Shown: in pieces, positions 8,877-15,337 of the stretch
How the letters are laid out: each line of letters begins with the position of its first letter
Numbering within the stretch: the stretch's first letter is position 1
Assembly (NCBI GenBank): GCA_051294375.1
Contig: CM119266.1
Coordinates: 26,571,387-26,635,386 of the forward strand
Source: Paraspadella gotoi
Lineage: Eukaryota; Animalia; Chaetognatha
Direction of reading: 5' to 3'
DNA: 64,000 nt
Program-made: the position numbers and the translations under genes
Notes under the pieces: generated by a model
Seen by the model: the letters and a program-made list of their open reading frames with translations, nothing else
Database searches by the model: none
What the model was told of the DNA's origin: nothing

Positions 8877-9024
8877 ATTGGCTGACGCAAAAATGCGGTG
8901 AAATCACTGGCCTCTGATTGGTTCCTTGATTTCACTAAGTTCGCTCGTCGGGCTATAAAAGCTCGTTCGCGCTTTCCGTTATCGCAGGTCTCTGAAAGCG
9001 TTCTTAACATAAACGTAGGTAAGT
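8877..9024 (+). promoter_or_regulatory. Pol II promoter and short non-coding leader exon for the nucleoplasmin/EF1A unit
   Basis: Two inverted CCAAT boxes (ATTGG 8877, 8917), TATAAAA 8954-8960, pyrimidine run CTTTCC at 8972 (5'TOP-like, but closer to the TATA than the usual ~30 nt), consensus donor AG|GTAAGT at 9019. Confidence 0.65.
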
Positions 9025-9375
9025 TTTATATTAATCAGGTATGATTAGTTAATGTTATTTATTTTACTGTCTTTTTATTTATAGCTATAAAACTGCTCAT
9101 TTCTGAGCAACTTTCGACGGATCAATACATGGCGATTGGCGAAGAATTTAATTGGTCGCACTACCTTTTATAGGTACTTTATTAATTCATTAAGAATTTT
9201 TTGCAATGTCTTATAACCTATTATTGTTTAGTGAAATGTTTGCGTAGCCGATGAGTCGTTCGTTTGCCGTTACAACTATCATACCAGATTTGGAGCTGAA
9301 AAGGCATGGAGATGCCTGGACTTACATCAGGCAATTATTGTTTGAAAAATGTGTAATCGTTTCATTGCTTTAGGA

Positions 9376-9545
9376 ATTTGCAGCAATAAGTTTGATTTGT
9401 TTGACAATTTGTTTTATTTCAGTTTAGAAACGGACATGTTTCGGCTTTGAATACAAGCCTTTTTCAGCGTTGACAGATTTGTCCGTTTCTAAACTGAAAT
9501 AAAACAAATCGTTGTCCCAAACAAATCAAACTTATTCCTGCAAAT
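9376..9545. repeat. Long inverted repeat/hairpin, ~60-bp arms, 43-nt loop
   Basis: 9376-9436 is the reverse complement of 9480-9545 apart from two small bulges and one mismatch. Confidence 0.9.
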
Positions 9546-10237
9546 GTTTTAAAAATTTAACATTTATTTCTAACTAATTGTCCTGACTCTTTAGGTTTGG
9601 TTGTATGGGACCTCTCCTCAGTTCGATTGTACGCATCGCTACGCCGACAACTTTATCATCTGTCAGCGAAGTTTCGGCACGTCGATCCTGTGAAGCTTGG
9701 AACAATTGACATCACAGGACGACATGTCCCCACTTTACTATGACTGTTTCTCCGTTTTAGTCTTAGCGCTTTTAGCTTTTGACGTGACGAGGTCATGGCA
9801 CGAGAATACGCACCAAGTCATCGTTCGTACTTGTTTTCATGCCATAACTTCTTCCGTTGCCACCCCACGGGCTTGTCAATCATTTTTGAATTTTTAATGC
9901 CGACAAATTAAAATCGCTTGTCACTTCGAGGTGGATGTTTACTAGTCCGCTACCTATTGACTAGTAAGCATGCATTCCTGAAAGAGACAAAGCAAGTCTT
10001 CTAAATTTAACATGTTACGACGAAAACAAGTGCGTCTCCTTGGAAGATGCGTTTCCTACAATTTCTTCGTATCACAGGGGGACATTCTTGATTTAGTTCT
10101 TGTACCAACAATGATTGTTTTAATAATACCTTCTCCACTTGTTACGTAAATCAAATGATTTTACCGCCTCGTCAAATTATCAAAATTGACGCGATGTTAC
10201 GTCTTTATTTGACCAATTTTAGATTTTAAAAGAAACT

Positions 10238-11199: not shown

Positions 11200-11321
11200 C
11201 GTTAAATTTCGTTTTTCATTTTATAAAATTTTAAAATTCCATTGTGCAAATGATTTTACGAGTTTCTTAATAGCAAGAACTGCTTTTCTTACAAAGTTTG
11301 TTCTAATATCCAACTGCCAAA

Positions 11322-13245
11322 ATGCCCAAAGTAAAGACTCACATCAACATTGTGGTGATTGGCCACGTAGACTCGGGCAAATCGACGACGACCGGTCACT
11401 TAATCTACAAATGCGGCGGGATCGATAAAAGGACAATTGAAAAGTTCGAGAAAGAAGCCCAAGAGGTAAAAATCCAGTAGATTTTCAATTTTTAAACTTG
11501 ATACACATTTTCTCTTTGCAGATGGGAAAAGGTTCGTTCAAATACGCCTGGGTTTTGGACAAGTTAAAGGCTGAACGCGAGCGTGGGATTACCATTGACA
11601 TCGCCCTGTGGAAGTTTCAAACGGAAAATTACTATGTAACAATCATTGACGCTCCCGGCCACAGGTACGTTTATAACAACAAATAAACAATCTTAAAACT
11701 GCGCCCACTAAATTTTTTTAGAGACTTCATCAAAAACATGATCACAGGAACTTCCCAAGCTGACTGCGCTGTGTTGATCGTCGCTGCAGGAGTCGGTATG
11801 TAACTCCATGCATATCACATTTTCGTATATTGACATTTAAATATTTTAACCGGTTTTTTAGGTGAGTTTGAAGCTGGTATCTCTAAAGAAGGGCAAACCA
11901 GAGAACATGCTCTTCTCGCTTATACTCTGGGCGTTAAACAGCTAATTGTGGGCGTTAACAAAATGGACACTACAACACCACCGTATGGAGAATCTCGATT
12001 TATGGAGATCAGAAAAGAAGTGCAGAATTACATCAAAAAAATTGGATTTAACCCCAAAGAAGTTATCTTTTGTCCAATCTCTGGGTGGCACGGAGACAAC
12101 ATGCTCGACAAGTCTGAAAAAATGACTTGGTGGACAAGCGTAAGTTCATACAGGATTTTTTAAAAAACTTTTTTAACAAACATTGAATATTTAAGGGATA
12201 CGGCGACGGCAAAAAGGAAAAGGGATGGAGCAAGGACTCGAAAGAAGGCGGTCCCAAATCTGGTTTTACCCTGATAGAAGCTTTGGACTCAATTAACCCG
12301 CCAAGCCGCCCCGTCAAAAAGCCCCTTCGATTGCCCTTGCAAGACGTTTACAAAATTGGCGGCATTGGCACTGTGCCCGTTGGTATGTATCATTTACTTG
12401 AAAAATCTGAACGGCAAGTATACAATGCGCGTTTTAGGTCGCGTTGAAACTGGCGTCCTGAAGCCTGGGATGATCGTAACCTTTGCACCTGCGAATCTAA
12501 CGACTGAAGTAAGTCTGTCTTTCCGATTATTTTCAACAATGAATCTATTGCATTACATTTCAGTTGCCACTGAATTTTTTTATAAAGATAATTGCTATCA
12601 GGTTAAATCCGTGGAAATGCACCACGAATCTTTGCCTGAGGCCCTGCCCGGTGACAATGTCGGCTTCAATGTCAAAAATGTTTCGGTAAAAGAAATTCGC
12701 CGCGGAAATGTCGCCTCTGACTCAAAAAACGATCCCTCTAAGGAATGCAAGAATTTTACTGCACAGGTAAAAATAGTGGAAAACGTATATCAAACGTTCT
12801 TAAGTGTTAGTTAAAATTTTAAGGTTATTGTCCTCAACCATCCGGGAACTATCAAAAATGGATACGCTCCTGTGATGGATTGTCATACGGCCCACATTGC
12901 TTGTAAATTCGAAGAGATTATTAAAAGGTATTCCACTGACATTTAACAATTTATTTGCTGCTTTATAACCACGAGTCTTAACATCTTAGGTGCGATCGCA
13001 GATCAGGAAAGGAGCTGGAAGCGTTCCCTAAAACTATCAAGAACGGTGACGCCGCAATCGTCGAAATGATCCCTTCTAAGCCTATGAGCGTCGAATCTTT
13101 CGCAGATTATCCACCCCTCGGTCGCTTTGCCGTACGCGACATGCGCCAAACTGTTGCCGTAGGAGTCATAAAACAAGTGACCAAAAAAGAACCTTCCGGT
13201 GGGAAGGTTACTAAAGCCGCCGAAAAAGCCGGAAAGAAAAAATAA
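11322..13245 (+). CDS. EEF1A: Translation elongation factor 1-alpha
   Basis: [87 protein letters not shown]; short GT-AG introns; TAA 13243-13245. Confidence 0.98.
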
Positions 13246-13583
13246 ACGAACTTTGGCCGGGTTATTTAAACTGCAATATTTTTACTTCCATCGCGCGAAG
13301 ACGCGCGATTCGTTCATTTATCATTTTTTCAAATTTTGTAGCTAGTTTTCACATGATCCAGTTATCATTCATCGATTTTTTTGAACCTTTGCGGCTGTGG
13401 GCCTATAGGGTTGGTATCAGCGTTTGTAGTCGTAACCCTTGTTAAATATGACTAGATTCTCTGATTACTTACCCTGAGGCTACTCTCTTCCGTAACCACT
13501 TTTCAAATTACCATCTTTTGATACGGAAACTTCACCGTATTTATTTCGGCCATTTAATCTTTCAGATTTTAAAAAAATTAAGG

Positions 13584-15337
13584 ATGCCGACCATTGTCAC
13601 GGAAATCGTCAATTCTATGTTTCGTGCAAATCGAAACCGAAGGGATTTCGCTAAGAAATTGCGGGATATGGACAGGAATTCCACTAACAATTCCTCCGCA
13701 AGCGAATCCGACTTCGAATCCGGGAACGACGCTAGTACTCTAAGCCAACAGCTGGAACCTCAACCAACGGAACAATATTATCTTTGGGGATGCGAATTAT
13801 CCAGGTAAGTTACGAGTTGGTACGATCTATCGAATACGCTTTTTAGGCTCGGTTTCTTGTAGGTCCCACGACGTACACGTCATAAAGATGGACGAGAGCA
13901 TTGATGAGAATCTCGAAAATCACTTGCTCTTATTGAAGAAAGCTATCGTCGGATATAATGGGATCGAAGGTCGGTCAATTATTAAATTTTATTTTTAAAA
14001 ACGTGCCCTTGAAATAACCGTAGCCGATGAAATATAAATGCTAATGTATACAGCGTTATGATAATCTGTCATGAGCATTACGGTGGAGTGATGAAAAGAT
14101 TGAGCGATGGAATAATGTTTTTTTACTGCCTTTTGTATATGAAATTGGTACAACCAATATAAAAATTGTCCATTCATTAATAAATAAGCTATCTTGCCCC
14201 TGACTTAATAAAACCATCTTTTTTTTAAAAAAAATTAAGTTCGCAGCATCATTAATTGAATTTTCTTTTTAATTATATTCTCATAAAATCATTAAGTTTC
14301 AATCATATTTTTTTAATTTTAAAAAGTTTCATATTCGCCGGAAAAAATTAAACTTTTATAAAATATATTTTTAGGTTAAGGCTACGAAAAATGACAAATG
14401 TTTCATAGAATAGTTTTTACTACAAAGCAAAAGTAAAATTTTTTTCTATTTTTAACACTAGATATTAAAATTTTTAATAACAAATTTTAGATTTAACTTT
14501 TTATAAAAAATCTTCAGTAAGAATATTTTGAGTTTATGGTTTTATAAAGATATTACTGTAAATATATTAATAATACTGTTGCCCAGATAAACAATTTTTT
14601 GTACTCATAAAATATGTTATACTTGTAAAGAGCTTATAAACTTTTTCTGTAAATAAATATTAAAAGTAATTTCTAAAGTATAAAAGTTTTTTGTCCGTTA
14701 AATATTCTTAATATACAGGTTCGTTTATGCACGTAATCGCTCTAAATCTTCTACTCGCCCGTTATAGGAGAACGCAACGTCGTCGAAATTCAAACGACTG
14801 ACTTCAACGATAAAGAACAGCGCCATCCAATTGCTTCTCTCACTCTTGGAAAAGTCGAAATGGCTGACCTCGATCTTTGCCTCAATTGGAGCAAAACTAG
14901 GGAGATCAAGCTTAAGCTGGTCATGGGATCTGGACCAATCACAATTTCAGGTAACTTAATTTTTTAACAGGTTTTGAAATTTAATTATCAACCCCTTTCC
15001 TTATTAAGGAAATCATCATATCGAGTATCTGGGCACTCCCGAGGAAGACGATCCGGATTACGTCACTGAGGAAGACGAAACCGAAGACGAAGCGGAACTC
15101 AGCACCGTGGAGGACATAGATGCTCAGGAACTACATGTAAGACTACTGATCTACTCGAGCAATTACTTACCCTAATCATTCACCTTGCCCTCATAGGAGT
15201 TAGAAGAGGATCAACGAACGACCAACGAAGGGAAAAGAAAAAGGACGTCTGGCTCTCCCGACAAAACTTCTCCAGCCAAGAAGCGCAAGAGCGACAGCGA
15301 TAACGTCGATGTTCAAGAACTTCCTCTAAAATCTTAA
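13584..15337 (+). CDS. Nucleoplasmin-like histone chaperone 2 (exons 13584-13804, 13863-13969, 14768-14950, 15009-15135, 15197-15337, approximate)
   Basis: QYYLWGCELS...LLLKKAIVG...GERNVVEI...IKLKLVMGSGPITISGNH, acidic tract, bipartite NLS KRKR-x11-KKRK. Confidence 0.87.

What the first reader, a model, noticed from the sequence alone, without database searches (positions are those of the whole stretch)
8877..15337. Nucleoplasmin-EF1A-nucleoplasmin trio apparently served by one promoter and leader exon
Seen: one CCAAT/TATA promoter and a donor at 9019, then three same-strand CDSs each preceded by an unpaired 3' splice site (AG at 10222, 11273, 13565). Only 74 nt separate the NPL1 stop (11199) from the EF1A acceptor and 320 nt the EF1A stop from the NPL2 acceptor, with no evident promoter plus donor between. 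Known: animal EF1A genes typically have a short non-coding first exon. Inference: NPL1 lies in EF1A intron 1 on the same strand, and unrelated proteins arise by alternative acceptor/polyadenylation choice from a shared (possibly TOP) leader, or the unit is an SL trans-spliced operon. This would couple histone chaperones to translation-factor control.
Basis: partly seen in the sequence, partly recalled or inferred. Interest (0 to 1): 0.75.

Follow-up and report, generated by a model that had tools for sequence, protein, structure and literature searches.

The report
Arrow-worm operon with non-coding first RNA
In what is very likely an arrow worm, two histone-chaperone genes flanking a translation-factor gene receive the same short leader from outside this DNA, and the promoter's own first exons form a separate, probably non-coding RNA, so the unit is likely an operon cut apart by leader trans-splicing, a mechanism already known in these animals.

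Summary
The three genes are real and intact (NPL1 237 aa, EF1A 473 aa, NPL2 259 aa). RNA contigs show the same 18+ nt leader, absent from the window, joined at both nucleoplasmin acceptors (10222, 13565) in 1 of 4 runs. The 9019 donor has a local acceptor at 9084. It opens a separate four-exon, ~850-nt RNA with no convincing ORF; one contig ends in poly(A) exactly at NPL1's acceptor, a Ciona-type zero-gap boundary. The EF1A groups with an mRNA that starts with the published chaetognath SL2. Chaetognath operons with near-zero gaps are published (PMC2481426, PMC12460157), and the scan noted another operon in this genome (e1-10588163). Not seen: any RNA of this EF1A copy, a leader on it, a contig bridging the cistrons, or this leader on an unrelated gene. 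The leader matches no form in the published table. Verdict: new member of a known kind, with two modest twists.

The parts
8877..8961 (+). Predicted promoter: two reverse CCAAT boxes (8877, 8917) and TATAAAA (8954); start near 8984-8986 is inferred
   Evidence: sequence; no RNA cover in 8744-8987 in 4 of 4 runs, cover begins at 8997 in X1
8986..9018 (+). Exon 1 of the upstream RNA (donor 9019; the X1 contig fits donor 9015 or a 4-nt allele difference)
   Evidence: donor score; depth arithmetic gives 18+86+3 = 107 nt for X1 and 89+3 = 92 nt for X2; the joint itself is inferred, not listed
9085..9173 (+). Exon 2 of the upstream RNA
   Evidence: joint 9170->9229 (GT..AG) in X1 and X2
9232..9330 (+). 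Exon 3 of the upstream RNA, followed by a GC-AG intron (9331-9594)
   Evidence: X1 loose ends at 9331 and 9593 read into each other's exon; splice sites
9376..9545 (.). 170-nt near-perfect hairpin in the GC-AG intron, likely a MITE
   Evidence: -84.8 kcal/mol, z -15.2; single copy in the window; no Rfam family at gathering score
9595..10222 (+). Last exon of the upstream, likely non-coding RNA; poly(A) at 10222/10223
   Evidence: contigs in 4 of 4 runs; 21-A tail behind 10223 in X4 only; longest ORF 64 aa, reached by 20% of shuffles
10221..10222 (+). [quoted passage not shown]
   Evidence: X1 contig carries 16 non-window letters before 10221; leader absent from the window
10238..11199 (+). NPL1 nucleoplasmin-domain CDS, 237 aa, 5 exons; 3' UTR to at least 11294
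   Evidence: 55-65% identity to its 6 best unnamed relatives
11295..11296 (+). Predicted trans-splice acceptor of EF1A (alternative 11272-11273)
   Evidence: score; X3 NPL1 contig stops at 11294; no leader seen here
11322..13245 (+). EF1A CDS, 473 aa, 9 exons, intact; a faster-evolving copy in a chaetognath EF1A clade
   Evidence: up to 93% identity to unnamed relatives; no own RNA cover in 4 of 4 runs
13246..13565 (+). EF1A 3' UTR or intercistronic stretch (320 nt), ending in the NPL2 trans-splice acceptor
   Evidence: the related mRNA L001 has a 3' UTR of at least 363 nt; best donor here scores 5.2; no TATA or CCAAT
13564..13565 (+). Trans-splice acceptor AG of NPL2
   Evidence: X1 contig carries the same leader joined here
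13584..15337 (+). NPL2 nucleoplasmin-domain CDS, 259 aa, 5 exons; 3' end near 15410
   Evidence: 31% identical to NPL1 over 193 aa, different intron positions

Best explanation
Both nucleoplasmin mRNAs carry the same leader from outside the window and a separate spliced RNA ends at the first acceptor, so this is likely a chaetognath operon in which one promoter (TATA 8954) would drive a precursor that spliced-leader trans-splicing cuts into a probably non-coding first RNA, NPL1, EF1A and NPL2. Step 1 (inferred): transcription starts near 8985 and runs through to about 15410. Step 2 (two introns shown, one inferred): three cis introns are removed from the first 1.2 kb. Step 3 (shown in one run): a leader of at least 18 nt is joined at AG 10222 and AG 13565. 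Step 4 (shown in one contig; mechanism inferred): the piece released at 10222 ends on the acceptor G and is polyadenylated, as in Ciona's gap-less operons. This also removes 18 upstream AUGs that would block NPL1 translation. Step 5 (inferred): NPL1's 3' end abuts a predicted EF1A acceptor at 11296, and EF1A's 3' UTR likely fills most of the 320 nt to the NPL2 acceptor. When 11296 is not used, the EF1A stretch would be discarded as NPL2's outron, which would explain why this copy is scarce.
For:: identical non-window leader at both NPL acceptors. Both contigs stop where 18 leader letters plus 12 shared letters make 30, the branch expected for a shared leader if contigs are built from 31-letter words (assumed; arithmetic), so the leader is probably longer; no match with fewer than 3 mismatches in 64 kb, either strand; poly(A) begins right after AG 10222 and not at the genomic A-run 5 nt on, so internal priming is unlikely. 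NPL1 RNA reaches 11294, 27 nt before the EF1A ATG; mRNA contig L001 begins with the 3' part of published chaetognath SL2.0; the window's EF1A sits with L001 in a starred 5-row clade (97/96). PMC2481426 section 13: RPS14-PCNA operon, 3 nt between poly(A) site and acceptor. PMC12460157 section 10: 18% of genes in operons. PMC1488885 section 14: poly(A) on the acceptor G, sometimes 2-6 nt short.
Against: The leader is seen in 1 of 4 runs (one study); the contigs of X2-X4 do not reach the acceptors. It was seen only on two paralogs, never on an unrelated gene: (kinase and NDRG 5' ends, X1) showed none. It matches no form in Table 3 of PMC2481426 (by eye) and is no closer to SL2 than shuffles (53% reach the score). 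The poly(A) site rests on 1 contig; the other 3 runs stop at 10090-10156 without a tail. No listed contig bridges any cistron boundary. This EF1A copy is uncovered in 4 of 4 runs, and word shares of X2-X4 leave no room for it. X1 contig tips can carry unexplained 30-nt sequences (8997, 19283), so single tips are weak evidence.
Confidence: 0.72

Rival explanations
1. Partial operon: the upstream RNA and NPL1 form one unit, while EF1A and/or NPL2 have their own short promoters (TATAAAA at 11222; CpG palindrome near 13293-13312) and are trans-spliced as single genes.
For: No bridging contig. EF1A is absent where its neighbours are held (for X2-X4). About half of chaetognath genes are trans-spliced but only 18% are operonic.
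Against: The 11222 word lies inside NPL1's 3' UTR and arises in 23% of shuffles. No TATA or CCAAT within 320 nt of 13565. A relative's EF1A 3' UTR (at least 363 nt) is longer than the whole gap.
Confidence: 0.17
2. The 18-nt leader is the end of an ordinary distant first exon, outside this window, cis-spliced to either nucleoplasmin gene.
For: Seen only on the two paralogs; not found on other genes; not a published SL form. No genome was available to map it.
Against: It would have to skip more than 10 kb, including a same-strand EGF-repeat gene and the upstream RNA. The poly(A) on the acceptor G fits trans-splicing. The animal group uses several SL forms.
Confidence: 0.06
3. One reading: exon 8972-9018 is cis-spliced to alternative acceptors 10222, 11273 and 13565.
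For: Strong donor at 9019. EF1A's 5' end was never seen, so a 9018->11296 join is not formally excluded.
Against: Both NPL contigs start with another sequence; exon 1 is followed by 9085 and two more exons; the upstream RNA is polyadenylated at 10222. A relative's EF1A carries an SL.
Confidence: 0.03
4. The leader is an assembly chimera or a haplotype difference in run X1.
For: X1 has two other unexplained 30-31 nt tips, and its NPL2 allele differs at 2 places just after the acceptor. The leader looks like an intron end.
Against: The same letters occur twice, 3.3 kb apart, each joined exactly at an AG 15-18 nt before an ATG. The other two tips differ from each other, and the kinase one is not at an AG.
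Confidence: 0.02

Closest known systems
Chaetognath SL-resolved operons: Spadella cephaloptera RPS14-PCNA (PMC2481426, sections 12 and 13 read) and Paraspadella gotoi operons (PMC12460157, section 10 and passages read)
   Same: Same animal group by EF1A tree and SL2-bearing relative; same-strand unrelated genes; near-zero distance between upstream 3' end and downstream acceptor; housekeeping gene content.
   Different: The first unit appears non-coding; the leader's 3' 18 nt match none of the forms in Table 3 (ends ATTAAG, not TAAAG). The P. gotoi leader sequences were not in the text or the 3 readable supplements, and one spreadsheet was too large to read, so a match there is not excluded.
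Ciona intestinalis operons without intercistronic DNA (PMC1488885, section 14 and 12 passages read)
   Same: Poly(A) added on the G of the downstream acceptor; no AATAAA in the last 120 nt of the upstream RNA; some 3' ends 2-6 nt short, like the NPL1 contig ending at 11294.
   Different: Different phylum and SL; here the upstream unit has no convincing ORF.
C. elegans SL1-type operons (as described in PMC1488885 passages; original paper not held)
   Same: Upstream 3' end and downstream trans-splice site overlap, so the two products may compete.
   Different: Those keep a canonical AATAAA; none is seen here.
Nucleoplasmin/nucleophosmin family (PF03066) and eEF1A (PF00009, PF03144, PF03143)
   Same: Pfam hits above cut-off on the core exons; an NPL1 relative matches Xenopus-type nucleoplasmin, NPM1 and NLP cores in the PDB; acidic tails.
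   Different: NPL1 has a basic N-terminal extension (RS-rich in relatives); this EF1A clade has an insertion in the G domain (473-479 aa against about 460).

Membership tests
SL-resolved eukaryotic operon | Adjacent same-strand genes with very short distance between mRNA ends | tested here: met
   0 nt upstream RNA to NPL1; NPL1 RNA to within 2 nt of the predicted EF1A acceptor; at most 320 nt EF1A stop to NPL2 acceptor, 3' UTR included
SL-resolved eukaryotic operon | Downstream cistrons carry a leader not encoded next to them, joined at an AG | tested here: met
   NPL1 and NPL2 in X1; 2 of 3 coding cistrons, EF1A not observed
SL-resolved eukaryotic operon | The same leader occurs on unrelated mRNAs | tested here: inconclusive
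   not seen on kinase or NDRG contigs in X1; 0 of 80 fetched EF1A loci hold it
SL-resolved eukaryotic operon | Leader comes from an SL RNA gene (leader, donor, Sm site) | not testable with these tools
   no genome held; not in the window
SL-resolved eukaryotic operon | Polycistronic precursor detected | tested here: inconclusive
   no listed contig bridges a boundary; contigs drop rare forms
SL-resolved eukaryotic operon | Single transcription start, none inside | not testable with these tools
   contigs cannot show starts; only motif scans
Published chaetognath SL forms 1-4 | 3' end identical or near-identical to a listed form | tested here: not met
   Table 3 of PMC2481426 by eye; 9 of 18 identical to SL2, no better than shuffles
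Ciona-type gap-less operon boundary | Poly(A) added on the acceptor G | tested here: met
   one contig in X4; 1 of 4 runs
Shared cis leader exon / nested gene in EF1A intron 1 | mRNAs begin with exon 8972-9018 | tested here: not met
   2 of 2 contigs that reach an acceptor begin otherwise; EF1A untested
snoRNA or miRNA host gene (upstream RNA) | Known small RNA in an intron | tested here: inconclusive
   Rfam: 2 matches, both far below gathering score; strong hairpin of unknown nature
Chaetognatha (host assignment) | Marker protein groups with a sequence bearing a chaetognath-specific SL | tested here: met
   one gene, no named chaetognath protein in the tree

The most novel reading that the evidence does not exclude
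The operon is led by a stable, spliced, polyadenylated non-coding RNA whose 3' end is made by the trans-splicing cut itself (an outron kept as a transcript), it uses an undescribed chaetognath spliced leader, and the choice of acceptor at 11296 acts as a switch that keeps or discards the middle EF1A cistron while both histone chaperones are made.
Probability: 0.25. Interest if true: 0.6.

Novelty: new member of a known kind. Interest (0 to 1): 0.36.

Why it matters
Operons and SL trans-splicing are published for arrow worms, so the unit itself is ordinary for the group. It adds three usable details: a base-exact boundary suggesting that chaetognaths, like Ciona, can make an upstream 3' end by the trans-splicing cut; a leader not in the published table; and a compact locus where one can test whether an outron survives as a spliced poly(A) RNA and whether a middle cistron is skipped. 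How gap-less operons are resolved was left open in PMC1488885.

Tried and rejected
No whole genome is held, so the leader's gene and synteny could not be mapped. The run search listed no holder on record as RNA; spliced GT..AG joints show that the contigs are RNA-derived. Lack of EF1A cover is not used as evidence: the tool drops human-like contigs, and not even other EF1A copies of the animal appeared in X1. Contig depths were not used to rank genes. The second lay looked for the leader on other genes and found none. The leader is in no paper of the library together with 'spliced leader'; 'chaetognath + nucleoplasmin' gave 0 papers; searches for polyadenylated or spliced outrons and non-coding first cistrons (listings and abstract starts only) showed no matching case. 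Coding role of the upstream RNA: ORFs at chance length, no Pfam hit for 4 frames, and the 2 hits are repeat proteins summing weak matches; only one of several small ORFs was searched this way, and the Atlas gave no answer. The SMAD search named no close relative. A few NPL1 relatives lie on contigs of about 2.7 kb, the size of NPL plus EF1A, but these could not be fetched.
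Full report
What is in the DNA. Window 8877-15337 holds a TATA/CCAAT promoter-like site and three intact same-strand genes: NPL1 (10238-11199, 237 aa, 5 exons), EF1A (11322-13245, 473 aa, 9 exons) and NPL2 (13584-15337, 259 aa, 5 exons). Pfam hits above cut-off support the names. NPL1 and NPL2 are 31% identical over 193 aa and have different intron positions, so they are old paralogs.

RNA evidence. 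Five runs hold part of the stretch; 4 were laid. All 4 NPL1 and all 4 NPL2 introns appear as GT..AG joints in X1. The X1 contig of NPL1 carries 16 letters before 10221 that lie on nothing in the stretch; the X1 contig of NPL2 carries the same letters joined at 13565. With the AG, 18 leader letters are seen. They are not in the 64-kb window on either strand (best match 3 mismatches). Both contigs stop where 18 leader letters plus 12 letters shared after the acceptor make 30, which is where contigs built from 31-letter words would branch (word length assumed), so the leader is likely longer. Contigs of X2-X4 do not reach the acceptors, so the leader rests on 1 of 4 runs.

The donor at 9019 is not free. 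An acceptor lies at 9084, and contigs show exons 9085-9173, 9232-9330 and 9595 onward: the joint 9170->9229 in X1 and X2, and two X1 loose ends that read across a GC-AG intron at 9331-9594. The first joint is inferred from side lengths and depth arithmetic: X2 fits donor 9019, X1 fits 9015 or an allele. This ~850-nt RNA is held in 4 of 4 runs. One X4 contig ends at 10223 with 21 A's, directly after the NPL1 acceptor AG and not at the A-run 5 nt further on; the other three runs stop at 10090-10156 without a tail. Its longest ORF is 64 aa, reached by 20% of shuffles, and it has 18 AUGs. No Pfam, Rfam or credible protein match was found. It is probably non-coding.

EF1A. Word shares fit X2-X4 without EF1A and leave an excess in X1, a hint only. 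The closest proteins are unnamed. An mRNA contig of one of them, L001, begins with the 3' 27 nt of chaetognath SL2.0 as printed in Table 3 of PMC2481426, 53 nt before its ATG, with a 3' UTR of at least 363 nt. The window's EF1A falls with L001 in a starred 5-row clade inside a 19-row clade of 46 rows. The host is thus very likely a chaetognath, and a close EF1A relative is trans-spliced. Earlier AI notes on this genome say the same; they are not independent support.

How it likely works. One promoter would drive a precursor. The first 1.2 kb is cis-spliced; trans-splicing at 10222 gives NPL1 a capped leader and frees it from 18 upstream AUGs, and the released piece is polyadenylated on the acceptor G. 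That relation is what PMC1488885 section 14 reports for 41 of 55 upstream cDNAs in Ciona, and PMC2481426 section 13 reports 3 nt between poly(A) site and acceptor in a Spadella operon. NPL1's 3' end likely abuts the EF1A acceptor in the same way, and EF1A's 3' UTR would fill most of the 320 nt before NPL2. Because such ends compete (PMC1488885 passages), skipping 11296 would discard EF1A as NPL2's outron. Shown: splice joints, leader at two acceptors, one poly(A) site. Inferred: single start, read-through, EF1A leader, skipping.

Against and untested. The leader matches no form in Table 3 and is no closer to SL2 than shuffles. P. gotoi has three leaders whose letters I could not find in the main text or 3 readable supplements; one spreadsheet was unreadable. 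A second lay on the neighbouring kinase and NDRG genes showed no leader and revealed that X1 tips can carry unexplained 30-nt sequences, like the 31 letters before 8997. No listed contig bridges a cistron boundary. A TATA-like word at 11222 is at chance level but leaves an own EF1A promoter possible.

Verdict. Operons are common in chaetognaths (18% of genes, PMC12460157 section 10), so this is a new member of a known kind. The non-coding first RNA and the unlisted leader are the parts worth a look; searches (listings and abstract starts only) showed no report of either. Papers seen: PMC2481426 sections 12 and 13 plus passages; PMC12460157 section 10, passages and a supplement search; PMC1488885 section 14 plus passages; PMC7986045 passages.

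Noticed in passing
window 19283-24552 and beyond: One X1 contig of 4015 nt runs from a protein-kinase CDS through a 1.8-kb last exon straight into spliced exons of an NDRG-family gene: a second candidate operon or overlapping transcripts.
   Followed up: partly
window 8997: The X1 contig of the upstream RNA carries 31 non-window letters before 8997, next to an AG at 8997-8998; too long to be a widely shared leader, origin unexplained.
   Followed up: partly
window 19283: The kinase contig has a 30-nt non-window tip, not at an AG and not found in the window; likely a contig-tip chimera or an allele difference.
   Followed up: partly
window 9376-9545: Near-perfect 170-nt hairpin (z -15) inside a GC-AG intron; high contig depth in X1 suggests a repeat family such as a MITE, but a small-RNA precursor is not excluded.
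   Followed up: partly
window 10223-10260 and 13566-13610: NPL1 and NPL2, only 31% alike, share the first 9-12 nt after their acceptors and a similar first eight residues; NPL1 relatives have RS-rich N-terminal tails.
   Followed up: no
window 34514-35203 (minus strand): Downstream of a MATCAP-like exon (36816-37223), a TGA followed by C opens directly into a 197-aa stop-free frame: possible read-through or a further cistron; read by eye only.
   Followed up: no
window 15468-15553: A spliced X1 contig (depth 81) lies just downstream of NPL2's 3' end, a possible further transcript or repeat.
   Followed up: no
window 13293-13312: CpG-rich palindrome in the EF1A-NPL2 gap; could be a 3' UTR stem or a promoter element.
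   Followed up: no
L002, L008 and L042, first 30 nt: Other fetched mRNA contigs also begin with leader-like sequences: L042 with the 3' end of nematode SL1; L002 and L008 with a shared sequence recalled as the Oikopleura SL.
   Followed up: no
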